Shown: positions 16,483 to 46,344 of the stretch, piece by piece
Layout: each line of letters starts with the position of its first letter
Numbering within the stretch: position 1 is the first letter of the stretch
From: Candidatus Omnitrophota bacterium
Lineage (GTDB): Bacteria > Omnitrophota > Gorgyraeia > Gygaellales > Profunditerraquicolaceae
DNA length: 64,000 nucleotides
Assembly: GCA_041661605.1 (NCBI GenBank)
Contig: JBAZUE010000002.1
Span: forward strand, 40,010 to 104,009
Reading direction: 5' to 3'
The notes under the pieces: model-generated
What the model was told of the DNA's origin: nothing
The model's database searches: none
The model's input: only the letters and a program-made list of their open reading frames with translations
Program-made: the position numbers and the translations under genes

Positions 16483-16487
16483 AATCT

Positions 16488-16562
16488 GACCCTGTCGTCT
16501 AGCCTGGTCCAGGACAAGAGCTTTTCAAGCTCTCGACACGGGTTCAAATCCCGTCAGGGTCA
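16488..16562 (+). tRNA. tRNA-Glu (anticodon UUC)
   Basis: Acceptor GACCCUG/CAGGGUC, anticodon loop UUUUCAA, T-loop UUCAAAU; 75 nt, 5 nt after the gyrA stop. Confidence 0.8.
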
Positions 16563-16704
16563 CTAAAAATGTGGTAAGAGTACTTGGGCCCCACCTCATA
16601 ATAATAAAAAATTTGTAACCAAATTTTTTATATTTGGTGGTGTTTCGCTGGACAAAAGATTTAATGTGCTCAAATTTCGCTAGACCAAAATCAAGGGTGT
16701 TTAC

Positions 16705-19354: not shown

Positions 19355-22300
19355 ATGAAGACAAAATCATCAAGAAGTTTTAAAATCATTGCTATTATTA
19401 TATCCTTTTTACTTGTTTTTGAGCAATCCGGGTTTGCTCAGGTTGCCGGAGAGCTGGATATTTCAAGGCACTTCTTTGCTCTGCAAAATAGCTTCTCCCA
19501 GGAAAGATTCCGCCCACTGCACTTAAGATACCTTGCCTATGATCCGGGAGCCAATAACTTCAATCTGCTTTTAGATAAAGGAGATTTTGTGAAGGGGCTG
19601 TCTCCAAAGGGGGCCGTTCCCGAACAGGAGCTCAAGAATCAAACTAAGGAACTTTTAAATTATTTTTTTATCGGTATATCCCTGCCCAACGAATCGTTCT
19701 GGGTAAATTTAAGGCCAGATGCAGAAGATAATATTATAGATAGTGAATTGGCTGAAACGGATGTAGGAAAGATTCTTTTAGAAGCAGACCTGCAGCTTAA
19801 AAAAGATACAGCCAATTTTACCTCTCCTCAGGCTCCAGAAGGAAAAGACTACTGGGATAAGCTCTACAAGAAGGCAGAAGAGCTATATGGGGATGAAAAC
19901 ATAACTATACCCACGCTAACCCGGCCTTGGATTGTGCCGGATGAAATCATTATCAGAGAGAGCTCTGACAATGCCTATATCTACAAAGCAACGCTCAAAG
20001 TTATGCTTGAGCAGGATTACCTTAAGAATTCATCTACATATAGTTTTCAGGATCAGCGATCCAAAACCTTGAATGAATACTCATCTCAGCTCATCAGAGA
20101 AACTATTATCCCCAAGTTAACCAAAGAAATAAATTCTTCCAAAAGATACGCTCCTTTAAGGCAGGTTTATTACTCGCTTATCCTCGCGCAATGGTTTAAG
20201 CAGAAATTCTATGGCAAATCAGGCTTATATTCTTATCTCATAGACAGGCATAAGCTGGATGGTTTAACTTCTGAAACTCCTTGGTCTAAAACAACTTATT
20301 TTAACTCTTACAGGACTTCTTTTCAGCAGGGAGAATATAATATTAAGGAGCCGCGTTACACTCCCTATGGCCAGACTATCAGGAGTTATATGAGCGGGGG
20401 GTTGGATTTAGGGCAAATAGTATCTTCTGCGATTATACAAGGAGTTGTGCAGGGCAATAAAGATTATGGACCCGGGTCGTTAATTTCTAAACATGGATTA
20501 GGCTTCCATTTTTCAGGTGGCACTGTAAGTAATCCTTTTGGGCTGAAAGTAGATGTAGTTTTGCCTATCGATACAGATATACCAAGAGCGATTGGACAGC
20601 TACCTGTTGTTGGCTCTCCGCTTTCCGGTAATAGCCCTTTATTACAAAAGCAGGCTTCTTCTAGATCGTTGATTTCAAAAAATAATGAAACTAATTTTTT
20701 ATCCCGCGCCTTGAAAAATTTAAGCGCGCTAGCAGGGGCAGTGTTTGTATCCGGAGGCAGATTTAAAAGAGGCACGTTAGAGCGTATACTTAACGGCCAA
20801 GGAATTAATCTTAAAATCGATGTTTCAATCGGGGATATCGCGGATGATTTTATGGAACTGTCTGCTTTTACTGTATTTTTAATTCCCAAAAAAATACTAA
20901 AGGAGTGTGTGAGTAGTTTGGAATTTGGCGCAAATCCTTCAGGCGCTTACACAGATGCTGATGAACCGGGTTTGTACTCCAATGAAGACAAAAGAGTTTA
21001 TATATATCAACGGTCATTCGCTTTCTGGGATGCTTACTTGTTGGCAAGGATAATTTTACATGAGGTAGGCCATGGATTCGAGGGCGGTTTTTCCGAAGAA
21101 GACGCGGGTAAGATAAAAGCGGCGTATTCACTTATCAGGCAGAAAATTTCAAATGGCTATAAGGATTATTCCCTGTATCTTAAACATGATGACAATATTT
21201 TAAGCCTAGATAACAGGAAGGCAATTGTAACATATACCGATAAGCCGGACTCGTCGCAATTTATAGCCGAGTTTTTTAGGGAGTATATTTTAAACGGTGA
21301 GGAATTAAGGGATAAGATAGGAAGCCAGAAAGACAGCGAAGTTAAAGAGGCTTTGGCCACAATCTATAGTATTTATAAGAAACGGTTCAATAGGGAATAT
21401 TATCCAAGAGACGTAAAAAGCCTGCGAGGCATACTGGAGAGAATCCCAGAGACAGTTGGAAAGCATATCGCCAGAGATTATAAGCAATTTAGCGAATTTA
21501 GGGGAGTCGCGGGAATCTTTTATTTGCGCTACGGCTTAACGCTAGATGAATATAGCGCATTGGCTGAAAAAGAAGGGCAGGATGTTGCCCTCGAGTCTCT
21601 TTATAAAACAATAGTTAGCGGTCTTGCGAGTAAAACACAGGTTGAGTTTGAGCAATGGAAACTAAAATTGGCAGCGACCAAACAGGCGCTATATGACAAA
21701 CTTATTTCAGTGCTTCATGATTATGCGCAGGCAATTACGAGTATGCACAGCGGTGATATTGATGATGCGGGATTGCAAAGTATATTACAAGATTTTAGGC
21801 GAGTGTTATTAGAAATTAAAACTCAATCTAGCCCAAAGAGTAATGAATATATTCTCGCTACTGAATACGCGCCCATTGTGTTTAACGTATCGCTTTCCGC
21901 ACTAAGCCAAGAATCGCGCTTGCCATCTCTTGATGATATTTTATCAAAACAGTATCAATCTGCTGGGTCTTCGCTGGAAAGGGGGTTTCGGGATTTACTC
22001 GGTGATTATTATTGGCAAGAGCTGGAACGCCTACAGGTTCAAGGATTTAATGCAAATGACCTTAACGTATCCCTGATGTCTTCGGATAAAGAATCCGCCG
22101 AAACAATTATCAAAGTATTTAGAAAACTGGACATTAATGCGGTATTCCATGCGATAAAAAATGACCCTAAAAGTTTTAATCTTTTGCTTAGAAAGATGTT
22201 GGGCTCAGACAAATTTATTCAATATTTAAAAAACACGCTGGAGTCTTTAGATAGAGACAAGTATATCCTTAATAATGCAGAGCGCTTTAACCAATACATG

Positions 22301-25300
22301 GGTATTTTTGATATGTTTTTTCCCCATGATGCGACTCTGCTTCAAAGGATAAAGTTCTGGTTTAATAAAATTCAGAGGCTGGTAAATAACTGGATTAGAA
22401 TGCTGGAGAAACTGGCTATAGCCAACGGGAATATAGCGCCTTTGAATTTACTTTGGGAATATGCGCAGAAGGCAGATTATAAAACGCAGCTTGAGGCTGT
22501 GCGCAAAATCCGGGATTTACAAGGGCAATTTATAAAAGTTTACGAAAGTGGTTATCGGGAATCGGAAGGCTCTATTGTTGCTCAAGTATCAAGAAAATAT
22601 TTCATTACGCTTACCTCATCCCTGGGCATCATTGAACAGATGAAGGCAAATCAGGAATGGCTCGAAAAGTTCAATTTAGCAGAAATAGATAAAGCCTTAA
22701 GCTTAATCAGAAAAAACTTTCTGGGAGTAATTATAGATTTAGTGGCTACGGGAAAAAAGAGCGCAAACCCAATGTTTATATTAAACCGGATGGAGTTGTT
22801 TAAAGACGTAGCGTCATTGGCGAGAAATTTGGAAGTTTTGAAGAAATTACAAAAAGACCCCAAGATTGAAGACGAAACATTTCTGTATTTATCCTTCCTG
22901 CCCTTCGAGGATTTAAATAAAATCATACAGAGGGCAAGTCTAATTTTTAAAGACGCCGGAATAGTAATGCGTTTAAATGTTTCAATATTGGATTGGCTCC
23001 TAAAACTTAATGAAGATGGTTTTGATAATTTAACCCGGAATGTTGACGCCCTATCCGCAGGTAATGAGATGTTTTTATTGACGCTTGGCTCCTCCGACCT
23101 TGAATTTTTATTAAATTTAGAATATGAAGAAGCTAAAACCATGGGCAGTATAATAAGCCGGTTAGGATACGGCTTCGGATATAATTATTTTGAGTTAGTT
23201 TCTAATATGCTGAAAAACGCAAAGAATTCCCCTGGACAAAAGGAAGAAATTTTAAGCATTACTGCTGAAGACATACAGAGGTGGCAGGATCATAACCAGG
23301 AAGATTTCTATCAGCTAAATAAGATATATCGTTCGCTTGCCACATCGGATAACACCGTAAATTTGATCGTAACAGTCATTAAGAAAAAGGATATATCCAT
23401 TATTGTGCCTTTTGAAACGCTGGAAAGTTTTGGCCTTTATCGTCAAGAGATGGAGCCTTTTAATAAATTCATGAATACATCAGCCAGATATGAAAATAAG
23501 AGGGAAATAGCTGTTTTGTTTGCGAGATGGGTTTCGATAATATCTACCGCGGATGCCTCTTTTACGGAGAGCGCCATGCCGGCAATTAAGTCTGCTTTCG
23601 AGGAATATTTTAATTCCGATAGAAGAGATAAATACGCGGCATTAAGGAACAGTTTAGAAGCTGTTTTGGAAGCAACGATAAGGAAGCTATTAGAAGAAGT
23701 TACCGGGGAGGCCATACCGCAAGAAAAGATTTCCAGGCTTGAGGAAGGCGGAAGGTTGCAAAAGATTATTACCGTTGTTTCGCTTTATTACAGCATAATC
23801 GCAAAAAACGAGCAAAGTGAGGCGGATAAGAAACAAATGCAGGAAAGAGTAACAGAAATACTAAAGAAGTTCATTTCAGAAGAAGCTGCCGAATCGGATG
23901 TTGAGCAATGGATAATTGGTAGTATTGAGGAAAACCGGAAAGCAATGGATGCCTTACTTGCGGCAGGATATGACAAGAGGCTGTGGGAAGAAGGGGTCAG
24001 GGTTGAAGGTGAAATAAGGCGCGGATTAGGTGAAGAAGAAAAGAAGGCGCAAATTAACAAACAGGCCCAGGAAATTATCGACAGGGCAAAGAAAATGGGC
24101 TTGCCGGTAAAAAATATTAAGATAGAAAGCTATGAAGATGCGCGAGACGTATTTAAAACTATCTTGGACAGCAAAGAAAATATAATTAATTCCGGAAGGG
24201 CCTCAAATGAGGATTTTGAAGGCCATGTAAATAGAATAAGGGATATTCTGGGAAAAATTAAGGACATATCCGGTAAATACTTAAATGGAAGAAGCGAAAA
24301 AGCGGAAATCGTTATAAAAAAAGATTTCTTTGCCGAATCGCTTTCTGGAAATAATTCTTATTCGGGGTGTTTTAAGGCTTTCGCGGGTTTTCATCAGGAG
24401 ATGCCGCTTAAACACGCTTTGGAAGTGAATACTGCTATAGGGATAGTATATATTGGCGGAAAACCGGTAGCGAATGTTGTGCTGGCTTTGACGGATAAAG
24501 GAGTAGTAGTATATGGTGACTATAAGGAGGACTACGATTTAGGTCCTCTATGGGCAGAAGCCTGGAAAGAATTAGCAAAATTATCGCCTGCGGTAATTCT
24601 CGGTGGTAATTCTGCCGGAAGAAAGGCTTCTGAAAAGTCCGGTAAAATAAGAAATATCTTTTCTTTCAAAGCAATTAAGACCGCAACTCTTTGGGAGCAT
24701 GTTAGTTCGGATTTGGGGCGGACGGATGAAAATGGGGATGTTTATTATATAATACAACCTGCCTTGATATTAACTTCTCGCTCAATTGCCAGGAGTGGCA
24801 GTGATAAGAATGACAATTCTGGAAAAGCTAACCTCGTGATACCTAAAAATCAGCTTTCAGAAAACGAACAGGAGCAGCAAAGAGTTTCTCCGACAGATAA
24901 ATTTAATAAAGACAGAGGCAGGATTGTAAGAGAAATTATGGCTAACCCTGAATTGAATGAGCTGAATTTAAAGCCATTATTAAGCAATTTTGAAAGAGTA
25001 ATATTTGATTTTGACGAGCAAGAGACAGAAGAATTAGCGGCGTCTTTGAATAGCCGGCTTGATGCAAAGCGAAAAATAACAGAAACAGAAAAATCCGCCT
25101 TAACACAAAAATTGGCTGAAATTAAAAGAAAATATAATTCACCCTCAGCCAGTTCACCAATTAAAGCAGGCGAATCCGCCGGCTCTGCGGCTGAGGCTTT
25201 CAGCTCGGGGCTGGCCGTAAAAGATGAGTTAATAGCAAGCGTTAGGGGTAATAGCTGGAGGCCGGTCCTTCCCGCGGACAGTTTTGCCGCAAAGTTTATA

Positions 25301-28300
25301 CCTCTTTTTAATAAGCTGGACCAAAACTCGGTCCCAGAAGAATTCCCGATTGTTTCTGTCGTTGACAACGGATTACAATTGCCGGATTCTGATAAATTAT
25401 GCCTTCAGGATAAAACAACCGCCAGCCGATTAAAAAAAGAAGGCATAGAGTTTCTTTCCGGGGAATTGCTGGGCAGTAATATGTTCCTTAAGACTCTTAA
25501 GGCAGAGTGTGCTAAAGAGGATTCAGATTTGAAAAGATTCTTAAAACAGCATTTTGTATATGCTATGTCCCCGTCTTTGCTTTGGCAAGGAGAAACAAAT
25601 AATTCGTCGATAAAATATGTCCAGGAGATGCTGGGGGATAATATTATAAAGAAGTATCCGCAGACAGCCAAAGCTTTTATCCCGCTGATACAAAGTTTAT
25701 TCCAAAAATTGCCCGCCCGCCAAGGCATTAATTTCTTTGAAAGCGTGACAGGAGGGACGAGCTGCGGGAATACGCGCAGGGCTTTAAGCGGAACCGTTCC
25801 TTTATCTAAAATGCTCGTTTACGTTTATCAATTGAATTCAGCCATGGAGGGGGTTTATTTAAAAACAAATAAAAATCCTGAAGCGCTGGGGGCATTTATA
25901 GATTTAGGGTTTGACCCGCCGTTATATAGCTCTGTTGAGGCAATCAGTTACGCGCTTGAGCTTTTACTCGCGCAGTGGAAGAATGTCGGTTTGAAAGAGG
26001 GCGCCTCAATGTTTTTTGAGCTGGGCCTAAGGCAGGCATTAGAAAGGACATCTGATTCGCCTTATAGGCAATATATATTCCGTTTCGCTGCCCTTAAAGA
26101 AAGTAATTGGTTCGCGCGGATAACGGATGATTTTTCATCCATCGATAATAATTTAACGAGTGAAGAATGGTTTGGTTTTGCAGCGCGCGAAAAAGAATTT
26201 TCTGAATTTATCGATATACTGGCCGGGAATGGTTATAAATTCTCGCGGTTTGACGCAAGAGAATTATTAATGTTGAGCAGCAAAGAAGGGATGAAGGATT
26301 TTGTCGCAGATTTGATTTCATACGGTTATAGGTTTAAAAAAGAACACATTACTGCCTTGTTAGAGATGTTTGGCCGCCGGGAAGAAATTATTAATAAGGT
26401 AAAAGAGATTAAGACAGCTTGTCCCGAATTTACGTATTATATTTTTGATGACGCGACTAGGCTGTCTTATGAGCCAATTAATGTCCTAGCGGATTTTTTA
26501 AAGCGCAATCGCCGCGCGGCGGTTAATATGGTAAACAATCTCGAAACCGCTCTTACGTATATGAATCCTGAAGCCCTTCTTCAAGCGGAAAAAATCAGGG
26601 AAGTTTGCAAGGCTTTCAATTCCCCTGCTTTTCTCATAAGCAGCTTTCTTAGCGGCTCGCTTAACGGCCTGTTGTCAAAATTCACGGGAGAGGATGATTT
26701 TATGCGTTTTGCATTAACCGCGGATGTTATCGAAAAAAACTTTAAAAAAGCATTCATCGCGTTCTTAAGCGGTTATAAGCAAGGCACTCAAAGTCAATTT
26801 GACATATTGATGGAAATATTCCTTTCCAGTATTAGTGATGTGGAGCGGTCTTCAAAGATTGCCGACATCATTGGAAACTGGTTTTCCGCCGCGGATACAA
26901 CCTTTTCTTTGCCCAGGGATATTAATGCAGCAATGCAAAGTATCTCCTCCGGAAATATGGATAATCGTAACCCAGTGCATGTATTTGCCAGTTATTTGGC
27001 CATAAGCAAGGCATTACAGCAAGAGGGAATGCAGCGCGGCGTTACTTATAAAGACGTTTTAGGATTGGCTGAGAAGCGGGCCAATAGAAAAGAGGGATTT
27101 GAGGGCATCCCGCAAGAGCATATGCGTAATATAGAAGGGGTGGTATATGAAGCGGTTATCATCCGGAATAAGCTTTTGGAAATAGAGCGCGCCGGAAAAA
27201 AGCAAATAGTGGTTGCCAATTTGTCTTACGGAGGAGTGGCGGTTACGCCAATCACCGAACAGAAAAACGGCCAGGCGCATATTGTGGGTACGCAAATCCC
27301 TGTATGGTATACAAAAGTCGGCTCTACCGAGGCGCACAACAATGAATACGTGCTGGTTTACGATTTATTCACTCCGGAGCAAATAAAGGTTTTGATTGAA
27401 GAAAAACCGTTTGTCTCGGTGGTTGACGGGAGTACTTCTGTAGCTGATTCCGACAGGAGTTCTCCGCACATACCTGATGCTTTTAAGGGATACCGTAATT
27501 ATTTTATTGTTTTAAACTTCGCGCTGAGTGAATCATTTAACCCGAAGGATTTTGATGTAAATGAAGAATTCGTTAAGAGTTTACTGGCTACTGATGAGGC
27601 CAAGGAACTTATCCGTAAGATACGGTCTATAGCTGTTAAACCGCGTGTGCCCAACGCGTATAAATTCGGGTTTTCTTATGAGCGCAAAGCGGATTCGGAA
27701 AAAGAAGAGTTTTTATATTTGCGGGAGGGGAAAAAAGAAGCTGCTAAAGCAACTAAATTAAATGTAGATGAAATTATAAAGCAACAAAACCCCTTCTGTA
27801 TTTTCATACAGTCCTGTATTCATCCTAATGACGTTGACAAAAAGTTGATGCCCGAAGAATACAGGGCAGGGTATTATGATGATAGAGGCCACTTTAAAGA
27901 ATTCTACCTTGATTATAAAGACGGTTACGGCGTTGTGATTTCCAGGCGTTACGCTGACGCGGCAAGGGAATTCTTCATGCAATTCATGTCGCGAGATGAA
28001 GCTGACTCCGCCGGTTCGTCGGTTGAGCAAAACAAGGAAAGCGGTATTGATTTATCCAGAAGGAAAGGAATATTAATTTCATTAGCCACTGTTTTGACTC
28101 TAAAGATATTAGGGCCGTCAAAGGCGTTGGCAGAACTCCTGGGTTCTGATGAAATATATTATTTGCACTTAGCGAACAGCGAACCTAAAAATGCCGTATT
28201 AGACTTTAAAAAATATAAGGCGCAGCCTTTTGCAAAAAATGTTTTGAAAGCGGCCATAAATAAAAATGCGGATGTGGTATTAGAGCACGCGGAGGTTTTT

Positions 28301-31300
28301 ATCAATGAGACTTATGCGCAGGAACTATTTGAGCTCGCAACCCAAACCTGGCCGCAGTCTATATTACGCCACGCATACCAGATTATTAAGCAGCCATACG
28401 CGCAGGGGATTATTGAAATTGCGGCCAGTAAGTACCCGACGGGAGCTTTGGAATACTCTTTTAATTACGCAAAACAGCCGTACGCGCAGAAGATCATTGA
28501 AACCGCGGCCAAAAGCGAGCCCGTTGCAGCGTTGAAATTCGCGAAAGCTTACATAGAAGAGTCATACGCGAAGGGCATACTCGAGCAAGCAGCTAAGAAA
28601 AATTACCTGGCAACTTTAGAATACTCCCGGAATTATTTTCGAAAAGAGTATATGCGGCCAATTATAGAGCAGTGTGCTAGAAAGAGCGCTTGGGGTGCCT
28701 TGAGATTTGCCTCCGGTTATCTGAATATGCCCGGAGCCAGGCAATTAATTGAAGCAGCGGCAGAATTAAGTCCGGATACGGCTTTGCGTTATTCATTTGA
28801 GTATATGGAAGCGCCGTATGCAAAGGATATTATTATAAAGTCGGCGTTACAAGACCCGGCGGCGGCAATAATAAATACGGGAGGGGTTGGGTGGGTATTG
28901 GAAGAAAAGAGAAAAGATATTCCAGAGATAGATATTATTTTAAGGATAGCAGCAAGCGAATATCGCGGCAAGCAAGAAAGAATAGGAGCGCTGCTTGATA
29001 TGATTATGAATGATATTGCCACTGGCACTGAAGCAGGCAGGGCAATGTATAAAGCAAATAAGATAAGCGAAAATGATAATGAATTCTTTAAGGAGCTTAT
29101 GAAGATAAAAACTAATAAGTCCTCTAGGGGCGTAGCAAGCGTTGACCGGTTTTTAAAACGCCTATCTTCGATCTTAATAAGAGATATGAATGATATGCAT
29201 GATTTAACAGCGGAAAGAAGATTCAGCGCGTTGAGCGATTATGATGCGTCCATGCTTTATACTATGATAGTTTACGGAGAAGATGAGGTCTATACCTCTA
29301 CCTTCAACGGGATCTTCAATATACTCATTAAAAAGATGAAGGGAAATAATATTTCCGGAGAAAAATTATTAGAAATGGTCGGTAAAAATAAATTCCGGGT
29401 GTTTATAAAGCTTACTGCGGCATTTAAACGCTTGAACGAATTTTGGGATATTTTGGAGGCAAAGAATAAAAAAGATGAGCTGATAAAAGAATTTGTCCAG
29501 GGTTTAGCCGGGATAAGAATTGACAACGAGCGATTATCCCAGGCAATAGCGGTAGCGGACACCTTCAGCGTGATTAACGGCGGGTATCAACAGGTTATTT
29601 TACGCGAGGCCATTGAAGAATATAAGAAAATGGAGACCGCAGGCAATAAAGAAGGCGTGAGGATTTATGGGATTTTAATAAGTATTTTCGGCAGGCAGCT
29701 GTCCATAGAAGAGCCGTGGTTTCAGCAGATGTATCAGAATTATCCTGTGCCGGATTTAACGGCGATTGACGGCTCGCAGCTATTTGATCCTAACGGAGCG
29801 CAGGCTAATACGCAGGTGCACTTTTTTTATCATGACCCTTACGGTAAGAATTCTTTTGCTAATTTTAAAAAACTATTTAACAAAAACGAAATTAAAGAAT
29901 CCCCGGACAAAAGTTTTATTGTTATCGCGCGGCAAAGGGCGGACAAAAAAATCATAATATATGCCAATAATCCCTATACAGACGCTGTCAAAGGTCAGAT
30001 GCAGATTGATAAGGCATTGAAAGAACGGGGAATAGAGCCTCAAGTAGTTGTCCATCGCGGCCACAGTTTTCATCTTTCAGATACGATAGAAAGGATAACG
30101 GCTAAGGCCAAGATAGTTTTTCTGGGGGCTTGCGGCGGTTACAATTATATCGTTGATGTGTTGGAGAGGGCGCCATTGGCGCATATTATTTCAACAAAAG
30201 GGACGGGCAAAAACGACGTTAACAATCCGCTCCTTGATATGTTAAATAATGAGCTTCTTTCGGGAAAAGGCATTCAATGGGAGGGCTTCTGGGGAAAAGC
30301 AAAAAAGAGGTTGGGTAATACTAAGGATTTCTTGGATTACGTGCCCCCGCACCGTAATTTGGGCGTGTTATTTCTTAAGACATACTATAATGTTGCGGAG
30401 AATGTTTCTAAAACAATCCCGCAGCCGCGAAACCAAAGCTTTCTCCGGGAAATTATTGACGGCCTGACCATGGAAGCAATTTTACCAATAACAGTATTTA
30501 ATATGGCAATTAATAAAATAGCCGACCGTAGCCCAATGGACAGAAGGGAATTTTTTGGATTAGGGAAGAAAACGAGTCAATCCGGCTCCGCTGATTCATC
30601 TATATCCAGAGAAGTAATGGCTGGGTCTTCATTGCGAAATCCTCTACCCGCAGCCCCGGCATCCGAGTTACAAGAAGGCCAGGAAAATCAAAACGGAATG
30701 GATCGCAGGACGTTCTTAGGTGCCCTTGGCGGCCTTGCCGGGCTAACTTTTCTTCTCGGCTTGTCTGATTCAGGGAATGCGGCAGGGATGCCGCAAGAGA
30801 ATGTCCAGCCTGAAGAAAGCGCGCAAAAGGCCGTTGATTGGGACAAGGCAAGAGGATTTATCATCGATAAACTTGCTGAAAAATACCCCGAAAAGAAGCA
30901 GGCTCAAGATATTAAAGTGGCTTTCGGCGAATATGAAAAAGATAAAAGCAAGGCTTACCGGCAGATAAATAAACTGTTAAACAGCATGGCGAAAGAAATG
31001 GATAAGGAGCAGAGAATCGGCTTGAACAGCAACGGTTGGTATACGGTTTATTTCATTTATATTGACGGTCTGTATGAGGAGTTCGGGCATAAAATATTAT
31101 TTCCTTTTGGCAGAAGGTTTGCATTCCTGGATTCAAAAAATAACCAGGGAACAAGAAAAGTGATGGAGCAGGTGCTCGAGGAAGAAGCGGCTACCGTGAA
31201 AAAAGTGATAGGTACCTTGTTCGGAGGGCTGAGTTTACTCGGCGCGGGAAAGTTTGTTTACGATAAAATAATTAAACCCTTCTTTTCCAGGCGATTTACG

Positions 31301-34300
31301 CGCACGCTTATGGATGAGCTGCGGACAATAAATAATGTCGTATTTAAAGACGATGGAATTGAAGCGGGAATTGAGGTGTATACCCAATCCGTGAAGATCG
31401 TAATGAATACATCCGCTGAAAGCGTAAAAATCTACCGGTTACAAAATAGCCAAGAAAAAATAACGCATGATCAGCGAGATTCTCACCGCTATTATACAAA
31501 TTATGGCTGGCAAATAGAACGGGCTATTGAGGATTATATCTTGGATAAGCATGATAAGGATATGCTTTTAAGTTTTATGCCCGTTAAATTAAGGGATAAC
31601 GAGTATTATGGATACATAACTAATAAATTAAAGTTAGAATCGTTATTAAAAGGGATAGTTAAAATAATAAGTGATTTTAGAGAATACGAGTACCGTGATT
31701 TGGCAGAAATAATTGCTTTATTGCAAAAAGAAGAGCGCGTTAATCAACAACTGCTCATTAATTGGTTGATGGCGGCGCAAAAACAGGGGCGGTCTTTGCG
31801 CTCGGCGCTTGATAAATTACAAGAGTTGTTAAAACTGCTGCAGGGTGAATCTTCGGAAGCCGTGGCCGCAGGAATAAGCCTACTTATTAAACATCCTTAT
31901 TTAAGGGTATCGTATTTACGCGTTTGGCTAGAAGATGCCGCAGCTCGCGGGCAAGACAAGGCAAAGCTTGTCGGCGACCTGAATAATTATTATACCATAA
32001 CAAGGGCATTGTTAAGGGCAGGCAATTATGAAAATGAAATAGCCGGAATGATACAATCTGTATTGACAGATAATATTGAAATCCGCAGGCATAGTTTATT
32101 AAGCTGGCTCAAGGCTGTGAAGCTGCATGGCAAAGACGCAAAAATGTTTTTATCGGAATTAAAGAAATTAGCCTTAATTAATAAAAGATTTATTGAGGAG
32201 TTGGAAACCAGGCGGCCCCGTTCCGGGTACGGGTATGAATATAAATGGTTCGAGGATACCCTTTTATCGCAAAGCGGAAAGCTGCTTTTGGCTTTAGGGG
32301 GAATATATGATTCCGGATATCTTAATAAGCTGCTTCCGTTATATACAGGCGGATATCTTTCTAAGTCTTTGGGTGAAAAAGGGTATATATATCTTGAAAG
32401 AATATCCAGCATTCTGGAAGAGAATATTAATCTCATTGATTCTGGAAGTTTGCTTGAGCTTAAGAAGAGAGAAATTGGCAGTAATGATCGACTGCAGTCT
32501 TTGATATTGGCAAAAGTTTCGGTTGACCCTTCTTTTATCCAGTCGATCACAGATAATATAAAAAAAGAAGAGAATCCGCAAGTTAATAATAATTTATTAA
32601 GATTATTATTCAGCCTTGAAGGCGCGGATGAAGCAATCCACGATATATTAATGAACATTAACCCTGAAGAAATCGCGCGAAAAACGATAAATAACGAATA
32701 TAACTGGCAGTGGAACTTATTAGAGCTATGGCCGGAGAATGAAAAAAGTATAGCCAGGATTATGAAAAAATACCCTGAGTTGCTTTCAAAAGTGTTCGCC
32801 ATAGCCAAGCCTCTAGTGTCAACTTATGAAGACAGGCCGCCGTATTACAAGAGGCATTTCCCGCTTATTATATCCGCCGCGTTAAGCAATTCGCGGGAAC
32901 TGAGTGTTTCTGCGGATGAATTCAGGGATTTATTTAAAATACTTAATAATTGGCGTTACCGTCCGGAATGTTTAGGGGCGATTTCCTACGCCGTGCTTAA
33001 CAATCCTTCTCTTTTTCGGGAACTACTTACAGAAGATCATATATTTGATGCCGATTATTTGCTTGGAGTAAAAATAATTCCAATTGAGCTGCGCATGAAG
33101 CTGCAAAGGCAGTTTCTTGAGAGTTTTAAGGATGCCTTTCGTGAATTAAGGCCGGAAGAGTCTTCCAGGATGCTGGCGGGCATGATCAAGAATATAGTTA
33201 TTTATGGGCGCGTAGAAGCGAAAGATTTGGACCTCTTAGCGGTTTTTCCCGAGCGACAGGCAGTAGCGAATACGGTATTTTTCTGCAGAGAGCTGCGAAA
33301 AATAGGCTATGATTTCAATAAATATGATTATTTTACTTTCGGAGATTTTCGTTTTATTCATGAATTAGCGCAGCAACCGGATATAACGGCATTTTTGCGC
33401 AAATTAAGGAGCTACGGATTCGTCTTCCAAGACGCTTATTGGGGGTATCATTCCAATGACAGAATCGGGATTTTAAGCGATATATTCAATAAAAGAGAGG
33501 AGTACTTTTCAAAAATTGAAGCGATACGCTCCGTGCTCCCGGATTTTAAATACCAGCCTTTACTAGAAGGCCTTAGCCCGGAATCGGTACTGGCTTCTTT
33601 ATTGGAACGTTATCCCAGTCAGGCGGTTAGCATGATGAATGACCCGGAAGGCGTGCTTAAGGCGATTAATCCGGAAGCTGCCCCTTACGCGAAAAAAATA
33701 AGAGAAATTTGTACTGTCTTTAATTTTCCCGTTTTCCTTGTAAGCGGATTTATCAGCGGTTCGCTGAATAATTTATTACCGGGATTAACCACGCCAGATG
33801 ATTTTATCTATTCAGTATTTATCGAAAATTCCGTTGAACAGGAATTTAAGGATAAATTCACGGCATTTTTATCCGGTTACACAAACGGCACCCAGGGCCA
33901 ATTCAATATGTTGATACAGGCATTCCGTTCCGGCCTTAATGGTTCGCGGCAGTCTTCACAGGTTGCCGAAGTCATAGGGGGCTGGTTTTGTAGCGCATAC
34001 ACGGTTTTTTCATTACCCAAGGATATTAGTATGGCCATGCAAAATATATCTTCCGGTAATATGGATAATAGCGACCCGGTGTATGTGCTCGCAAATTACC
34101 TGGCTATTAGCAAGGCGTTGCAAAGGGAAGGAATGCAGCGTAGCGTTACATATAAAGATGTTTTAAGTTTAATTGAAAAACGGGCTGGCGGCAGTGGGGC
34201 GTTCGAGGATATCCCTGAAGAGCATATGCGCAATATAGAAGGGCTGGTGTATGAGGCTGTTATTATTTGGAATAAGCTTTTGGAAACAGAGCGCGCCGGA

Positions 34301-37300
34301 AAAAAGCAAATAGTAGTCGCAAATTTGTCTTACGGAGGGGTAGCGGTTACCCCAATCACCGAAGAGAGAAGCGGTAAGGCTTATGTGGTGGGTACTCAGA
34401 TACCGGTTTGGCATACGAAAGTCGGCTCTACTCCCGCGCACAATAATGAATACGTACTGGTTAATGATTTATTCACTCCAGAACAAATAAAGTATTTGGC
34501 CGAAGAAATGCCGTTTGTTTCGGTGGTAGACGGCAGCACTTCCATAGCCGCATCCGACAGGAGCTCTCCGCACATACCCGATGCTTTTAAAGGATACCGT
34601 AACTATTTTATCGTTTTAAACCACGCGCTGGGTGAATCATTTGACCCGAAAGATTTCGACGTTGATGAGGAATTCGTGAAAGGCTTGCTGGCCACCGTTG
34701 AAGCCCAGGAACTTATTAAAAAGATACAGGCTATGTCAATCAAACCGCGTGCCCCTAACGCTTATAAATTCGGTTTTTCTTATGAGCGTAAAGCGGATTC
34801 CCAAAAAGGGGAATTTTTGTATCTGCGCGTGGGTAAAAAAGAAGCTACTGAAGCAAAAAAGCTGAATATCGGTGAAGCTCTAAAACAAGATAATCCTTTC
34901 TGTATGTTCCTTCAATCCTGCGTTCACCCTGATGACGTTGACAAAAAGTTGATGCCCGAAGAATACAAAGCGGGCTATTATGATGATACGAACCACTTTA
35001 AAGAATTCTACCTTGATTATGAAGACGGTTACGGAGTCGTGCTTTCCAAGCGTTACGCCTATGCGGCAAGAGAGCTATTCAGGAGATTTATGCTGCAAAA
35101 AGGAATTAATGTTATGTCCGGCCGTTTTACTACTGATGCCATTCGCCCGATTGATACATTGGTTCTGGACTTAGACGGCACGCTTACCGAAGCCATTGGA
35201 GGGAATATAGAAAACGGGACGGCCGATATTATTAATTATCTATTAAAAAAAGGCGTAAGGATAATTATCATTACTGATGATATTTTGGAGAATGTTGAAA
35301 AAAGAATCGCAAAATTGGACAAATCCGCTAACCTGGTTGTTCTTACCGATGGTGGGGCAAGAGGAGATGAAGGAATGTTTGAGCAATACAACGCACAAAA
35401 TATAATAAGCCCTGATTTAAGAAGCAGGGTCTTAGGTATAGCTCAGGCGAATTTCCCATTCGGCTCGTGGAAAGAAGGAAAGAAAGACTCTCTTTACCGG
35501 ATTCAAATCACGGATATCCAGGAGAGAACCGATTTTATCAAGCGTTTTCAGGATTTACTTGTTCAGGAAGGTATTGAGGCTAAAGTATATAAAGTTGGCA
35601 GGAATTCGGCGCGCGTTACCATTGCGCACAAAGAAGCGGCCTTCGCCGAAGCAATAAAAATGTTTGGTATTGATGTGTCTAAATCGCTGATTATCGCGGA
35701 TTCAGCCCGGTCTTACCGTATTGACCGTAAACTTTTGACTGCTTTTCCGGAAAGCGTAAGCGTTAATATAGGTAAATTCTCCCCTAGTATCGAGAGCGAG
35801 AATCAGAGAATTATTCAATATGCCGGGCAAGGTACAAGCGCAACAAAAATGCTGCTATCGAGTATAGCGTTTAGGGGCGGGCTGCCGCAGCATCTACTGC
35901 TTTCTTCTATGCAAAACCAGCCTTTGGAATATATGGAGGCCGCCAGTTCGCTTACTCAAAGCGCTTCACTAAGTCTATCCAATCTTTTTGAACCGCGGCA
36001 GCTGTCTTCCGCTGGTTCGGCGCTGGAGGAGGTAAATCTTCAAAAGATCTCGGCGGCGCTGGGGAAAATGGAAAAACAGGCTGTTGACGAAAAAGAAATA
36101 TACGGTTTAGCCGCGAGGTTGAAGGAAGCGTTTAAATGGGATGATTACTTCGGGAATTTTACCCCTGAGATGTGGATTGAGCTTTTGCGTTGTAAGGGAG
36201 TTAAAGAATTAAAGGGCTTAGATATAAAGGATGGAATACTAATAAAACAGGGTGATACCGTAAATGACGAACAGGCAATGTTCCTTATTGAAAAAGGAGG
36301 GGTGAGGGTTAGCGAAGATGCGCATGGAATTTGGATCGCGGATTTAGAGGAAGGGAATTATGTCGGAGAAATAGGCGCGGGCTCTTCAAATAGGCTGCGT
36401 ACAGCCACAGTGCGGATAAAAGAGGGGGCGCCGGAAACGAAATTTTTGGCAATACCTATGAGTGTATTTAGTGCCTTGGGGCTATCCAGGGTATTTTCGG
36501 AAATAAGCAGGCAACGCAGCAACCGTCTGAAAAGCAGAGAGAGATTAGCCGAGAAGGATTACACTCGTATATTGAAAAAATATCCGGATACAGAGTATGA
36601 TGAAGATAGCCCTGTAACAAAAGCTTATAACCTGGCATTAAAAATTATCAATCCAAAAGAAAACCCATTATCCGTGGACGTTACTTACCATAATCCTTAC
36701 CATTGGAATGAGTTGCTTGATTTTATCGATATTGTCCTACAGGGTATGGGGGATAATCTAAAGAATAAAAATAGGAAAATTATATTTATGTTGGCAAGGG
36801 TTGCGGCATATTTGCACGACATAGGGTATTATTTATCTAATGACCAAGGGAAGTTTACCGTTGTTGGACACGAAGACAGAAGCAAGGAATTTGTGCGTAA
36901 CAATATGAAAGAGTTAGGGCTTAGCAGCCGCTATGTCAATGCAATTCAGTTTATGATAGAGCATACTAAGCTTAAAATAGGAGAGGAGTTTGAAAATAAA
37001 TTGGGTTTAATAAACCAGGCGTTAGCGGAAATACACAATGGTAAATTATCTGATAAAACAGGGGTTTTTCTTAAAGAAATTTTGCCTGATTTAGACTTGA
37101 ATCTGGATAGTGATCTTGATTTTGCTAACGATGTTTTAATCGCTGCTAAGGCTCTTGCCGTAGCAGACCTGTATGCGGCAACCGTTGATATGGTTCCGTT
37201 TTTGTGGCTTGAATTTACTTTGGAAGGTTCTCCGGCAGGCAAGACGACTATGTTAGAACAAATAGCGGCCTCCCGCGATTTTCATAAAGGCGTTGTTGAA

Positions 37301-40300
37301 CCGCAACGGTTAAAATTGCTTTTAGAGGGAGGTTTCGGGTTAGAAAAGTTAATAATGGATAGTGGCTCGTTAGAGCGGTTAAAGAACGCCAGAGAGAAAA
37401 ATATCGGTATAATGCAGCAGTATGCCGAAGCGGTAAAACAGATAAAGGCAAGTGATACTGCCGAATCAGTTAAAAAAACAGCTGAAACGAATTTAATAAA
37501 TCTTATTAACGGCCTTAATGATGATATGGTTGGTCCGCTTAAAGATGAGTTGCTGGCTGAAGTAAAAACACTTGTTTTAAAAAGCAGCGCTGTTGGCGCG
37601 GGGTCGGCTTTACAAAATCCGGAAACAGGATTAATCGGCAGTAAAACACTTGGAAATTATAAATTTGTTCTGCAAGGCCAGGGCAAAGAAGGATACTTGT
37701 TAAAAATTTTTGGCAAAAGGGGTGTCGCAGGAGAAATAAAATTTAGATTACATGATCTTCCCGATGGCAGAAAAGGAATCTTTGTAGAAAATGTATTTGC
37801 TAACGATACTTATCGCGAAGATTTTAGGAAAGATTTTGAAAAAGGGATATATTCAAATATGCTAAAAGAGATTATAGAAATAGGGGAACAGTATTCCCGT
37901 GATATAAACAAAGTAACCGAAATAACCGGAGCGATAAATAATATAGAGACTCTGCAGGGTCTTTATGGCGCTATTGCCGGCAGTCGTCCAACAGAAGAGC
38001 GAGAAGAGGTTGAAAGGCTAAGTGGTATAGAGAAAAAGAATTATTATGAACATACAGAACCGCTGATTAAGATGTTAAAGAAAGCCATAATTGAAGAGGT
38101 GGGTAGCGAAGAAGGCAGGATGGAGCTTGATAGGAAACTTCCGGATACCCTTTTAGTAAAAGCCAGGTCAGGTGGGGGGTTCTCGGAAAATCACCGTATG
38201 CGGGTAGAGAGAGATCAGATAATCCTTATATCTAACACGCCGGTTCATTCCGCAGGCTCTTCGCTTGAGATGCGTCCAGAAGAAGCCGCTAAATTAATAA
38301 GGGAAGCGGTGCAGGAAAACTATGAAAAATGGGGCCTTTTATCCGAGCGTTTAAAAACAGCAAGGCGTATTTTGGTCCGGGTTCCCGGACGCGATAACCG
38401 TGGCGGCCACGAATTCCCATTAGGGGAGATAGCTGCTACTCTGCCCATATTAATCAAAACGCTGATTATTTCTGGAGAAAGCATCGAAAAGATAATAGTG
38501 CAATGTGATTCTTATCCGGAATTGGTAGAAGCGCTAGGAGAAAATAGGGTCAAATTAGCTGAGCCTAGTAAGACAACCGACGAATTAAGGTCTATTTATT
38601 CCCCGGATTTGGTTATTGATTTTGACACGGTAGCATTGGGTGAGGAGATTCCGGAAAACACAGTAAAGTTCCCAGTGGCAAAATTATGGATGTCTTTAGA
38701 TCGTCATAGGGAAATGCGTGAAATTTTAACTTCAGCAGGATTAAGCATTCCTAAAGAAGGCGAAGCAATTATCAGGAGAGAAAGGGAAAGGGATGGGCAG
38801 ACGACCATATTTGTAAATCCGCATAGTGATAGCAATAAGAATGATAATGTAGATTTGTGGGTAGGGTTAATACAGGAACTTGTTGCAAGGGGGTATAAAG
38901 TAGTACTTAATTCGGGTAAAGAGGCAGGAAAAGACCAGGCACATTCAAAAAATATATTAGAGAAGCTTAGAGAAGAAGTGAGATTGGGGGATGTGAAAGA
39001 ATTTAAAGGGAGTATTACGGATCTTTTAAATACCTTCTCAAAGAAAATAGACGGAGTAGTAACTATAGATAGCGGCATATTCCACGTAGTGCACAATTTG
39101 TATTCCTTACCTGCAGTCGTTTTTACTACGTCGAACACATTAGGTTGGATTCCGCAGGAAAAGGAGGAGTTATTATTTAAGAGGGTTCAATACTCAGATT
39201 TGAAAGATTCTTCTACTGCAGTAGAGTTATTGCGGAGTTTATTAGAGAGAGAAGAAAAAGCAGACGCCAGCTCGCCGGCTGCGCCGGGAGATTCTGTTGT
39301 GCCTCAAGATTCGACTTCGAACCTTAACGTAGTATTATTGTCGAAAATCGAAGATCATATGAGAACGGAATTAAAAAAAATAGATGATGCGATTGATAGG
39401 GAGATAGAGGGCATGCCCTTTGATGATAAACCGCACCGATTGTCCGACAAAATAATGGAACGTTACCGCCTCTTGTTTATCGAATTTTGCGAAATTGGCC
39501 GTGGCATACCGGAATTTGATCACCTATCATATTTAATGCAGGACGGAAAGTTTACTCCGGCAATGGCTATGAACGCATTGCAGGGATTATTCTTAAAAGA
39601 AAACAGGCTTTTGGTATTTTCTATTGGAAGAGATCCTGTTGATGGAAGAATTATAGAAAATATGCCCGCGCTTTCAGTGTTTAAGGTAAAAGAAACGCAA
39701 CTAGTTACAGAAGATATTATAGATAAGCATGTAGATGCATTGGCAATATTTGTTGATGGCTTGATTGTGCAAGATTACGTCACAAGGCGCCGTATGGGAT
39801 TTGAATCTTATCTAGCATTTGCCATACATGGGGTGACCATCGATGGAGCAATACCAGTTGTAGTAAATAAGGGAAGTATTGCTGCTGAACTTAAGCGTTA
39901 CTACGGAATGCGTTTAGAAATGGAAGCTACGGGTCAGCTTCCGGATTTCTATAGAAAGAATATTCCGCTTCTCAATGAGGCGTTGGCAAAACTTTTGATA
40001 AAACAGTGGCCTCAACCAAACAAAGATATCTCCGATTTTATTGCGAAGCATTTGGACGAATATATACGTAGAATTGTATTGCATGAATTAACGCATGTGC
40101 GTATAGCAGGCACGGATGATGATGAAATATTCGCGTATCTTGTTGAGATCGCGCAGACGCCTTATAGCTGGTTAAGGCTATTTGATGTCGTTTATAGTAT
40201 TAGTCCTCCAGTTAGAAGCACGTCGATCGAGCATGATTATGCCTCAAATAATTTTCTGCGTAACTTTATTCAGGGTATTTTCCAAAAGTACGAACCTGGT

Positions 40301-41738: not shown

Positions 41739-41770
41739 CCCTTGGTAGAAAGACCAAGGGTATTTTTTTT
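41739..41770 (+). terminator. leader attenuator (intrinsic-terminator hairpin plus U-tract) 20 nt upstream of the pyrR start codon
   Basis: CCCTTGG-tagaaaga-CCAAGGG followed by TATTTTTTTT. An upstream segment GAGAAGCUGGCAAGG (41687-41701) resembles the PyrR-binding loop consensus and could alternatively pair with the 5' arm of the terminator. Confidence 0.55.
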
Positions 41771-41789
41771 GCCCTTAGAGAATAAAACT

Positions 41790-44548: not shown

Positions 44549-44550
44549 AA

Positions 44551-45789: not shown

Positions 45790-45797
45790 GAAATAAC

Positions 45798-46343: not shown

Positions 46344-46344
46344 A

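What the first reader, a model, noticed from the sequence alone, without database searches (positions are those of the whole stretch)
30698..30790. Internal twin-arginine signal-like segment (MDRRTFLGALGGLAGLTFLLGLSDSGNAAG) at aa 3782 in the middle of the giant ORF
A textbook Tat-type motif (RRxFLx followed by a Gly/Ala/Leu-rich helix and a small-residue-rich end) occurs about 11.3 kb into the gene. It follows a Ser/Gly/Pro/Glu-rich low-complexity linker and has an AGGAAA SD-like sequence about 13 nt upstream of its Met codon. Inference: either (a) a fusion seam where a once-separate Tat-exported gene was joined to the upstream gene, (b) an internal translation start giving a C-terminal 3,600-aa Tat-exported product that carries the HAD/cNMP/HD/GT9 block, or (c) simply a membrane anchor helix. 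Any of these would change how the 'single 7,391-aa protein' should be interpreted.
Basis: partly seen in the sequence, partly recalled or inferred. Interest (0 to 1): 0.55.

Follow-up and report, generated by a model that had tools for sequence, protein, structure and literature searches.

The report
Leftover export signal at a gene-fusion seam
The Tat-like stretch is real, but it is most likely the leftover export signal of a once-separate gene, now a membrane-spanning helix at a junction inside a 7,391-residue mosaic protein of an uncultured Omnitrophota bacterium; nothing indicates a working Tat signal or a second translation start.

Summary
MDRRTFLGALGGLAGLTFLLGLSDSGNAAG is aa 3782-3811 of a 7,391-aa ORF (NCBI MFA6130369.1, Candidatus Omnitrophota MAG).

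Three results place it at a module junction:
- All 69 stand-alone homologues of the upstream block end 0-17 residues after giant aa 3675-3687.
- The only orthologue carries a 255-aa insert between the two RR motifs.
- Synonymous divergence between the two genomes jumps at aa 3793 (support interval 3773-3904).

The segment is the most hydrophobic 19-mer in the protein. A second conserved hydrophobic segment lies 145 aa downstream. The domains beyond it are HAD, cNMP-binding, HD and GT9, which are cytoplasmic types.

Tat-signal HMMs are its top hits but fall below cut-off (14.9 vs 22.7 bits; 15.4 vs 16.7). I found no signal for an internal start: Shine-Dalgarno rank is 32 of 138 in-frame ATGs, there is no promoter-like site, and synonymous sites are not unusually conserved. 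The ORF is unbroken in both genomes, with dN/dS 0.2.

Best reading: a fusion seam whose leftover signal-anchor now works as an internal transmembrane helix.

One puzzle remains. No single-chain topology satisfies all four hydrophobic signals, so processing into separate polypeptides is not excluded.

The parts
19355..41530 (+). Giant ORF of 7,391 aa (NCBI MFA6130369.1, hypothetical protein, Candidatus Omnitrophota MAG). It is a mosaic of at least three units: A, B and C.
   Evidence: The orthologue in L002 is also a single ORF. dN/dS is 0.20 overall.
19355..19450 (+). H1: N-terminal Sec-type signal peptide or anchor of unit A (MKTKSSRSFKIIAIIISFLLVFEQSGFAQVAG)
   Evidence: Hydropathy peak at aa 9-27. 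Conserved in the orthologue.
28058..28129 (+). H2: internal signal-like segment RRKGILISLATVLTLKILGPSKAL (aa 2902-2925) at the start of unit B. It sits where stand-alone homologues carry their N-terminal signal or anchor.
28130..30415 (+). Unit B (aa 2926-3687): helical PYAxxI repeats, a middle region and a C-terminal alpha/beta domain with invariant R-G-H-S and G-x-C. It matches a complete member of an unannotated family of stand-alone exported proteins.
   Evidence: 69 homologues, all ending 0-17 aa after the position aligned to aa 3675-3687. AF2 pLDDT 90.6, with the fold ending at about aa 3685.
30416..30697 (+). Inter-unit linker (aa 3688-3781): a predicted helix, then RR1, then a low-complexity tract rich in Ser, Gly, Pro, Glu and Gln. 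Selection is relaxed here (dN/dS 0.49). The orthologue has a 255-aa insertion at this site.
30536..30571 (+). RR1: MDRREFFGLGKK (aa 3728-3739), a second copy of the M-D-R-R-x-F-[FL]-G motif with no hydrophobic region after it
   Evidence: No Tat HMM hit.
30698..30787 (+). The finding: RR2 plus H3 (aa 3782-3811). It has a twin-arginine-like n-region, a 19-residue Gly/Ala/Leu hydrophobic stretch and a small-residue acidic end. I read it as a leftover signal-anchor that is now an internal TM helix with its N-side in the cytoplasm.
30788..31204 (+). Conserved 139-aa loop between H3 and H4 (aa 3812-3950), with no Cys. Predicted to be extracytoplasmic in the hairpin model.
   Evidence: dN/dS 0.12. 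No homologues and no family hit.
31205..31303 (+). H4 (aa 3951-3969, VIGTLFGGLSLLGAGKFVY) with a basic C-flank, DKIIKPFFSRRFTR. Putative return helix of the hairpin.
35159..39097 (+). Cytoplasm-type domain block of unit C: HAD (aa 5269-5448), cNMP-binding (5628-5707), HD (5813-5877) and a GT9-like region (6494-6581)

Best explanation
The segment marks the junction between the second and third units of a mosaic giant protein built by in-frame joining of genes that each carried their own N-terminal export or anchoring signal.

The motif (RR, then 19 hydrophobic residues, then a small-residue acidic end) is the retained signal-anchor of the downstream unit. It now sits 3,781 residues into the chain. 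There it most likely acts as an ordinary internal transmembrane helix, inserted by Sec/YidC. The two arginines hold its N-side in the cytoplasm.

Together with the second hydrophobic segment 145 residues later (aa 3951-3969, basic C-flank), it would form a two-helix hairpin. That hairpin displays a conserved ~140-aa loop outside the membrane and leaves the 3,400-aa C-terminal part (HAD, cNMP-binding, HD, GT9-like) in the cytoplasm.

Shown: the module boundary, the hydrophobic character, conservation in the one orthologue, and an unbroken reading frame under purifying selection.

Inferred: the former independence of the downstream unit, the orientation of the helix, the hairpin, and insertion by Sec rather than Tat.
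For: 1. Upstream boundary. All 69 homologues of aa ~2930-3680 are stand-alone proteins of 579-1,438 aa. Each ends 0-17 residues after the position aligned to giant aa 3675-3687. They are independent genes with their own stops and unrelated neighbours. At least 47 of 69 have an N-terminal signal or anchor. The giant protein has the signal-like H2 at the equivalent position. So one internal signal-like segment in this protein is demonstrably a captured N-terminal signal.

2. The AF2 model of aa 3400-3700 (pLDDT 90.6) ends its fold at about aa 3685 and is disordered after that.

3. The orthologue (Omnitrophota STD1_97, L002) keeps one ORF. It conserves MNRRTFLGILGLGGLAVLLGLSDSGNAG and has a 255-aa extra block inserted between RR1 and RR2.

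4. Synonymous divergence changes at aa 3793 (2-log-likelihood support interval 3773-3904; LRT 76). The fraction of identical-residue codons that differ is 0.168 before and 0.384 after. dS is 0.32-0.41 upstream and 1.0-1.2 downstream.

5. H3 is the best transmembrane candidate in both proteins (Hessa sum +1.3 and +2.7). H4 and its KP[FW]F[SA]RRF[TA]R flank are conserved.

6. The downstream domains are cytoplasmic types.

7. dN/dS is 0.17 upstream and 0.12-0.19 downstream, so both sides are expressed as coding sequence.

8. Multiple TM helices plus a signal peptide is the common architecture of long Omnitrophota proteins (10.1101/2023.11.21.568195; 10.64898/2026.06.07.730766).
Against: - I found no stand-alone homologue of the downstream unit (aa 3720-4650) in 5.8 billion clustered proteins or 1.84 billion representatives. 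Its past as a separate gene is therefore an analogy with unit B.
- Only two genomes are available, and they are close (83% aa identity). Conservation of RR and Met therefore says little.
- Topology conflict. With H1-H4 alternating, unit B would lie in the cytoplasm, although its family is exported. H2 would also be a weak stop-transfer with its RRK outside.
- No topology or signal predictor (DeepTMHMM, TatP, SignalP) could be run.
Confidence: 0.55

Rival explanations
1. Stop-transfer anchor in the opposite orientation. Units A and B are both threaded outside after the N-terminal signal, because H2 is too weak to stop transfer. H3 is then the single true membrane anchor, with its N-side outside and C-side inside. 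H4 is not membrane-spanning, and unit C is cytoplasmic.
For: - This places unit B outside, like its stand-alone family, and unit C inside.
- H2 and H4 are weak TM candidates (Hessa sums 6.5 and 4.5), whereas H3 scores 1.3.
Against: - The charge distribution is the wrong way round. RR sits directly on the N-side, and there is no K/R for 21 residues on the acidic C-side (12 in the orthologue).
- The conserved hydrophobic H4 with its basic flank would be left unexplained.
- The duplicated module (aa 2296-2884 versus 4651-5250) would lie on opposite sides of the membrane.
Confidence: 0.15
2. Internal signal peptide of a polyprotein. H3 inserts with its N-side in the cytoplasm, and signal peptidase I cuts after the small-residue end (A-A-G / M). 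This separates units A and B from a C-terminal product anchored by H4.
For: - The end of the segment is rich in small residues (SDSGNAAG; GNAG in the orthologue).
- H1, H2 and H3 all have the polarity of N-terminal signals, and only separate polypeptides satisfy every signal at once.
- Cleavage of giant Omnitrophota proteins has been suggested in the literature (10.1101/2023.11.21.568195).
- Precedents: the Bradyrhizobium FbcH cytochrome b/c1 precursor (my own knowledge, not retrieved) and Flaviviridae polyproteins (PMC7601889, listed, not read).
Against: - No cleavage-site predictor was run.
- The -3/-1 pattern is weak and differs between the two genomes.
- Cleavage after H3 would not solve the position of unit B relative to H3.
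- There are no proteomic data.
Confidence: 0.1
3. Internal translation start at Met3782. This would give a separate 3,610-aa membrane protein with an N-terminal RR signal-anchor, made alongside the full-length chain.
For: - Met is conserved in both genomes, and MDRR/MNRR is a typical N-terminus.
- The upstream 15 nt are A-rich (0.60, rank 5 of 137), like real starts in this genome (mean 0.45).
- The Shine-Dalgarno score of -4.3 kcal/mol is close to the median of real starts (-4.15).
- It would remove the topology conflict.
Against: - Shine-Dalgarno score ranks 32 of 138 in-frame ATGs.
- Start-context PWM ranks 98 of 137.
- The local fold of -12.4 kcal/mol is more stable than at real starts (-6.9).
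- Synonymous conservation upstream is 0.87-0.89, against a gene-wide mean of 0.77 with SD 0.17.
- Promoter-like sites are at chance level, and none lies within 500 nt upstream.
- The AGGAAA is forced by the conserved residues Q-E-N.
- No gene caller has recorded a protein starting here.
Confidence: 0.1
4. A functional internal Tat signal. [quoted passage not shown]
For: - Tat-signal HMMs are the top hits of the isolated 60-mer: PF10518 at 14.9 bits and TIGR01409 at 15.4 bits; the orthologue scores 17.4 and 14.8.
- The helix is Gly/Ala-rich and of marginal hydrophobicity, as described for Tat-dependent helices (PMC5449189).
- Internal Tat motifs have precedent (PMC3471235, PMC5449189).
Against: - All four HMM scores are below the curated cut-offs of 22.7 and 16.7 bits.
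- There are no positive charges after the helix, which the known mechanism requires.
- H3 is not the final helix.
- The loop has no Cys and no recognisable cofactor domain.
- The large C-terminal part is cytoplasm-type.
- No tat gene lies in the 64-kb window, and the rest of the genome could not be checked.
Confidence: 0.05

Closest known systems
Twin-arginine (Tat) signal peptides (Pfam PF10518 TAT_signal; NCBIfam TIGR01409)
   Same: - R-R-x-F-L core directly after a polar residue.
- Gly/Ala/Leu-rich hydrophobic region of moderate hydrophobicity.
- Small-residue end.
- Both HMMs rank first for the isolated peptide.
   Different: - It lies 3,781 residues from the N-terminus.
- Scores are below both curated cut-offs.
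- There is no Lys after F-L and no basic residue in the c-region.
- What follows is not a cofactor-binding passenger but a 140-aa loop, a second hydrophobic segment and 3,400 residues of cytoplasm-type domains.
Internal Tat motif before the last helix of dual Sec/Tat-targeted polytopic proteins (Streptomyces Rieske protein Sco2149, Sco3746, polyferredoxins; PMC3471235, PMC5449189)
   Same: - An RR motif inside a chain, directly before a helix of low hydrophobicity.
- It is preceded by other membrane-targeting segments.
   Different: - In those proteins the helix is the final one, carries positive charges at its C-end, and is followed by an exported cofactor domain.
- None of these three features holds here.
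Long Omnitrophota proteins with a signal peptide plus several TM helices (10.1101/2023.11.21.568195; 10.64898/2026.06.07.730766)
   Same: - Same phylum and same general architecture: N-terminal signal, sparse TM helices, few recognisable domains, regulatory and glycosyltransferase domains on the cytoplasmic side.
- Cleavage into smaller polypeptides has been proposed for them.
   Different: - At 7,391 aa this protein is far smaller than the >30,000-aa giants.
- I detected no SecA-like or C39 domain.
- Those papers do not describe twin-arginine-like internal segments: the term has zero occurrences.
- The 2026 study suppressed signal-peptide calls on the non-first chunks of its four >=100-kAA proteins, treating them as chunking artefacts.
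Internal signal peptides of polyproteins cut by signal peptidase (Bradyrhizobium FbcH cytochrome b/c1 precursor, from my own knowledge; Flaviviridae polyproteins, PMC7601889)
   Same: An N-terminal-type signal embedded between two functional units of one translation product.
   Different: Cleavage has been demonstrated for those proteins. Here it is untested and the -3/-1 pattern is weak.

Membership tests
Tat signal peptide (PF10518 / TIGR01409) | Scores at or above the curated cut-off of the family HMM | tested here: not met
   As an isolated 60-mer: PF10518 14.9 bits against a cut-off of 22.7; TIGR01409 15.4 against 16.7. Orthologue: 17.4 and 14.8. These are the top hits, with E values of 0.004-0.03.
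Tat signal peptide (PF10518 / TIGR01409) | Consensus S/T-R-R-x-F-L-K followed by an uncharged, moderately hydrophobic region | tested here: met
   D-R-R-T-F-L-G followed by 19 uncharged residues. RR, F and L match; S/T is replaced by D (N in the orthologue) and K by G.
Tat signal peptide (PF10518 / TIGR01409) | Lies at the N-terminus of the translated polypeptide | tested here: not met
   It is aa 3782 of an uninterrupted ORF in two genomes. There is no sequence support for an internal start. Direct evidence would need ribosome profiling or proteomics.
Tat signal peptide (PF10518 / TIGR01409) | The genome encodes TatA and TatC | not testable with these tools
   The annotated ORFs of the 64-kb window gave no Tat family hit. 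The rest of the 113.9-kb contig and of the MAG was not available.
Tat signal peptide (PF10518 / TIGR01409) | The passenger is a folded, usually cofactor-bearing exported domain | tested here: not met
   The loop aa 3812-3950 has no Cys and no family hit. The downstream domains are HAD, cNMP-binding, HD and GT9-like, and follow a second hydrophobic segment.
[quoted passage not shown] 2017) | The RR motif immediately precedes the final TM helix | tested here: not met
   The RR motif does precede H3, but H4 follows 145 aa later.
[quoted passage not shown] 2017) | Low hydrophobicity of that helix (positive apparent insertion free energy) | tested here: inconclusive
   A simple sum on the Hessa-2005 scale gives +1.3 kcal/mol (+2.7 in the orthologue). 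The position-dependent dGpred server used in the paper could not be run.
[quoted passage not shown] 2017) | [quoted passage not shown] | tested here: not met
   The C-flank SDSGNAAGMPQENVQPEESAQK is acidic. The first K/R is 22 residues after the helix, or 13 in the orthologue.
Unannotated stand-alone family of unit B (CPR and Chitinophagaceae proteins P0001-P0069) | Full-length collinear similarity, including the C-terminal RGHS...GxC domain, ending at the protein's C-terminus | tested here: met
   For example, giant aa 2932-3677 aligns to P0004 residues 86-794 of 802 in a single HSP. All 69 homologues end within 17 residues of the aligned end. Invariant residues are R169, G170, H171, S172, G192 and C194 of the query.
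Long Omnitrophota membrane-associated proteins | Omnitrophota origin, N-terminal signal plus internal TM helices, very long ORF | tested here: met
   NCBI calls it a Candidatus Omnitrophota MAG, and the orthologue is also from Omnitrophota. Four conserved hydrophobic segments. Length 7,391 aa.

The most novel reading that the evidence does not exclude
The giant ORF is a bacterial polyprotein. Its three units each keep a working N-terminal-type targeting signal (H1, H2, RR-H3). The chain would then be split into separately localised products: secreted A, anchored-outside B, and hairpin-anchored cytoplasmic C. The split could come from signal-peptidase cleavage at the internal signals or from initiation at Met3782. 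This is the only arrangement in which every signal's charge polarity and every unit's expected compartment agree. If true, internal signal-like segments could serve as markers for cutting points in other long Omnitrophota proteins.
Probability: 0.15. Interest if true: 0.7.

Novelty: new member of a known kind. Interest (0 to 1): 0.3.

Why it matters
Very long Omnitrophota proteins are hard to interpret because few domains are recognisable and their membrane topology is uncertain. This case shows concretely how such a gene can grow. A complete gene for an exported protein, signal included, has been captured in frame. The junctions remain places where modules are inserted and exchanged between lineages.

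It also shows that N-terminal-type signals can persist deep inside such proteins. Topology predictions that assume one continuous chain, or pipelines that discard internal signal-peptide calls, may therefore mislead.

For annotation, the protein should be treated as three units with boundaries at about aa 2900 and 3690-3780. The Tat resemblance should not be used to infer Tat export.

Tried and rejected
- **Homologues of the downstream unit.** Searches with aa 3720-4650 found nothing beyond the protein itself and one weak local hit. A stand-alone version starting with the RR signal could therefore not be sought.
- **Homologues of the orthologue's 255-aa insert.** None found, and no Pfam hit.
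- **More orthologues.** Two metagenome scans found none. The genome scan found one.
- **Exact-sequence look-up of a product starting at Met3782.** Not on record.
- **Is the C-terminal domain of unit B, with its invariant His and Cys, a clan-CD-like peptidase that could cut the linker?** The PDB profile search hit nothing in that domain. Foldseek returned only generic Arf/FeoB-like alpha/beta matches at TM 0.2-0.46. I dropped the idea as unsupported; it is not excluded.
- **Single-sequence AF2 of aa 3700-4010, to look for a hairpin.** pLDDT was 38, so the model is uninformative.
- **Internal promoter scan.** At chance level.
- **Tat components.** Pfam annotation of the window's large ORFs found no Tat component, but this covers only 64 kb.
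- **Literature.** The papers consulted on Omnitrophota giant proteins contain no occurrence of "twin-arginine". The three papers that contain both the Omnitrophota and twin-arginine terms were not opened.
- **Assembly artefact.** Rejected, because an independent assembly from another sample has the same unbroken junction.
- **Chance occurrence.** Rejected on the shuffle expectation of 0.04 and on the repeated motif.
Full report
**Observation**

Window 30698-30787 reads MDRRTFLGALGGLAGLTFLLGLSDSGNAAG in the frame of the single ORF 19355-41530 (7,391 aa). The protein is in NCBI as MFA6130369.1, a hypothetical protein of a Candidatus Omnitrophota MAG, on a 113,887-bp contig.

The stretch after RR has 19 uncharged residues. 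On a simple Hessa-2005 sum it is the best transmembrane candidate in the whole protein (+1.3), and no other 19-mer scores below 4. A Tat-like pattern occurs once, against 0.04 expected in composition-shuffled copies.

Three features were not in the finding:
- A second copy of the n-region motif, MDRREFFGLGKK, lies at aa 3728 and has no hydrophobic region. The pattern M[DN]RRxF[FL]G occurs twice against 2e-5 expected.
- A further signal-like segment, SRRKGILISLATVLTLKILGPSKALA, lies at aa 2901-2926.
- A hydrophobic segment at aa 3951-3969 is followed by DKIIKPFFSRRFTR.

Pfam on sub-fragments confirms HAD (22.4 bits), cNMP-binding (28.5) and HD (27.8), each just above its cut-off. GT9 scores just below its cut-off (19.9 against 22). 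NCBIfam gives weak matches to heptosyltransferase and CRP models.

**What lies upstream**

A search with aa 3400-4400 returned 69 proteins, and all matched only aa ~3400-3680. They are stand-alone proteins of 579-1,438 aa from CPR bacteria (for example Candidatus Jorgensenbacteria) and Chitinophagaceae.

In every one the alignment ends 0-17 residues before the protein's own C-terminus, at giant aa 3675-3687. The closest ones are collinear over the whole of aa ~2930-3680; P0004 residues 86-794 of 802 align in one HSP. At least 47 of the 69 start with a signal peptide or an N-terminal anchor, and only one has a later TM-like segment. They are ordinary separate genes with unrelated neighbours.

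An AF2 model of aa 3400-3700 built on this alignment is confident (pLDDT 90.6). Its fold stops at about aa 3685 and is followed by disorder.

Giant aa ~2902-3687 is therefore an entire member of this family captured in frame. It includes a segment (H2) at the position of the family's own N-terminal signal. A protein-end boundary lies about 95 residues upstream of the finding.

**What lies downstream**

The region aa 3720-4650 has no detectable relative. Nothing was found in the 5.8-billion-cluster collection. The exhaustive 1.84-billion-representative library returned only the protein itself and one weak local hit. A stand-alone gene starting with this RR signal could therefore not be found.

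**The orthologue**

One relative was found, Omnitrophota isolate STD1_97 (L002). Two metagenome scans found none.

In L002 the gene is again one ORF in the same neighbourhood. The segment is conserved as MNRRTFLGILGLGGLAVLLGLSDSGNAG, and RR1 as MDRREFLGLGRK. H4 is conserved in character, with the flank KPWFARRFAR.

The two proteins differ by whole blocks:
- G1 aa 876-1861 is absent from the orthologue.
- The orthologue has a 255-aa orphan block inserted exactly between RR1 and RR2.

dN/dS is 0.20 overall, 0.17 in unit B, and 0.12-0.19 downstream of the segment. It is relaxed in the linker (0.49) and in the short H3 and H4 windows (0.36 and 0.63, from few codons).

Synonymous divergence is not uniform. 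A single change-point fitted to identical-residue codons between aa 2926 and 4650 falls at aa 3793 (2-log-likelihood support 3773-3904; LRT 76). The fraction of such codons that differ is 0.168 before and 0.384 after. dS is 0.32-0.41 upstream and 1.0-1.2 for aa 3812-5250.

The segment thus coincides with a break in evolutionary history between the two genomes, as expected if modules are exchanged at this junction. With two genomes this is suggestive, not proof.

**Is it a Tat signal?**

Submitted as an isolated 60-mer, its best hits are the Tat-signal models. All scores are below the curated cut-offs:

| Model | This protein | Orthologue | Cut-off |
|---|---|---|---|
| PF10518 | 14.9 bits | 17.4 bits | 22.7 bits |
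| TIGR01409 | 15.4 bits | 14.8 bits | 16.7 bits |

RR1, H2 and H1 do not hit these models.

The c-region is acidic and has no basic residue. The following 139-aa loop has no Cys and no family hit. Then come a second hydrophobic segment with a basic C-flank and 3,400 residues of cytoplasm-type domains.

The known cases of internal Tat motifs are Sco2149 and related families. They require the RR helix to be the last one, to have C-terminal positive charges, and to precede an exported cofactor domain (PMC5449189). None of these holds here.

The annotated ORFs of the window gave no Tat family hit. The rest of the genome could not be examined.

**Is it an internal start?**

- The AGGAAA at 30681-30686 pairs with the anti-SD at -4.3 kcal/mol. 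That ranks 32 of 138 in-frame ATGs and is close to the median of real starts (-4.15), because this genome often lacks a strong Shine-Dalgarno sequence.
- A-richness upstream is high (rank 5 of 137). However, a start-context matrix ranks the site 98 of 137.
- The local RNA fold (-12.4 kcal/mol) is more stable than at real starts (-6.9).
- Synonymous conservation upstream (0.87-0.89) is within one SD of the gene-wide mean (0.77, SD 0.17).
- Promoter-like sites are at chance frequency, and none lies within 500 nt upstream.
- The upstream nucleotides are explained by the conserved residues G-Q-E-N-x-N-G.

An internal start is not excluded, but nothing in the sequence calls for it.

**Most likely mechanism**

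The segment is the retained signal-anchor of the third fused unit, now working as an internal TM helix with its RR side in the cytoplasm. It is paired with H4 into a hairpin that exposes the conserved loop and keeps the enzymatic and regulatory C-terminal part in the cytoplasm. The even number of conserved hydrophobic segments (four in both genomes) fits a cytoplasmic C-terminus.

This matches what is reported for long Omnitrophota proteins in general: a signal peptide plus TM helices, with regulatory and glycosyltransferase content on the cytoplasmic face.

**What remains unexplained**

H1, H2 and H3 all have the charge polarity of N-terminal signals. No single-chain topology satisfies everything:
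- The alternating model puts the normally exported unit B in the cytoplasm and makes the weak H2 a stop-transfer with its RRK outside.
- Placing unit B outside forces the RR of H3 outside and leaves H4 unexplained.

Separate polypeptides would satisfy all signals. This keeps open, at low probability, cleavage at internal signals or internal initiation.

**Verdict**

"Fusion seam" and "membrane helix" are two sides of the same answer. "Tat-exported 3,600-aa product from an internal start" is not supported.

It is an instructive but ordinary member of the class of mosaic, membrane-anchored long Omnitrophota proteins.

Noticed in passing
window 28130-30415 (giant aa 2926-3687): Unit B belongs to an unannotated family (no Pfam or NCBIfam hit) of stand-alone exported proteins in CPR bacteria and Chitinophagaceae. 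Its C-terminal alpha/beta domain has invariant R-G-H-S and G-x-C residues. The AF2 model is confident (pLDDT 90.6), but Foldseek finds only generic Arf/FeoB-like folds (TM 0.2-0.46). Its function is unknown; a His/Cys hydrolase is a guess.
   Followed up: partly
window 30536-30571 (aa 3728-3739): A second twin-arginine n-region, MDRREFFGLGKK, with no hydrophobic stretch. It is conserved in the orthologue as MDRREFLGLGRK and shares M-D-R-R-x-F-[FL]-G with the finding. It may be the stump of another captured signal.
   Followed up: partly
L002 about 10470-11230: The orthologue has a 255-aa block inserted between the two RR motifs. It contains FYHGTSS, which loosely recalls ADP-ribosyltransferase-type motifs. 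It has no homologues and no Pfam hit.
   Followed up: partly
window about 21980-24937 (aa 876-1861): A block of about 985 aa that is present in this protein and absent from the orthologue. It is another whole-module difference.
   Followed up: no
window 26240-28006 and 33305-35104 (aa 2296-2884 and 4651-5250): An internal duplication of a ~590-aa module. The first copy is 64% identical to the orthologue's second copy. The two copies sit on opposite sides of the membrane in most topology models.
   Followed up: no
window about 37300-40400 (aa ~5990-7010): Many 30-codon windows are 100% identical at codon level between the two genomes, whereas aa 3812-5250 has dS of about 1.0-1.2. The divergence is strongly mosaic, which suggests recent exchange of the C-terminal part.
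   Followed up: partly
window 1043-19193 and 41742-58890: The giant gene sits in a housekeeping region near the probable replication origin. Upstream are parA, parB and yidC (minus strand), then dnaA, dnaN, gyrB, gyrA, glmS and a TP_methylase gene. Downstream are pyrR-like, pyrB and pyrC, further pyrimidine-biosynthesis genes, and a V-type ATPase operon.
   Followed up: yes
window 13227-14063 and 44551-45789: Two ORFs with no significant family hit. One (278 aa) lies between gyrB and gyrA. The other (412 aa) lies after pyrC.
   Followed up: no
window 30725-30744: Terminator-like hairpins followed by a T-run lie inside the H3 coding sequence. They are most likely a by-product of the GC-rich Gly/Ala/Leu codons followed by TTT/CTT codons, and the count in the region is near chance (3 against 1.5 expected).
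   Followed up: no
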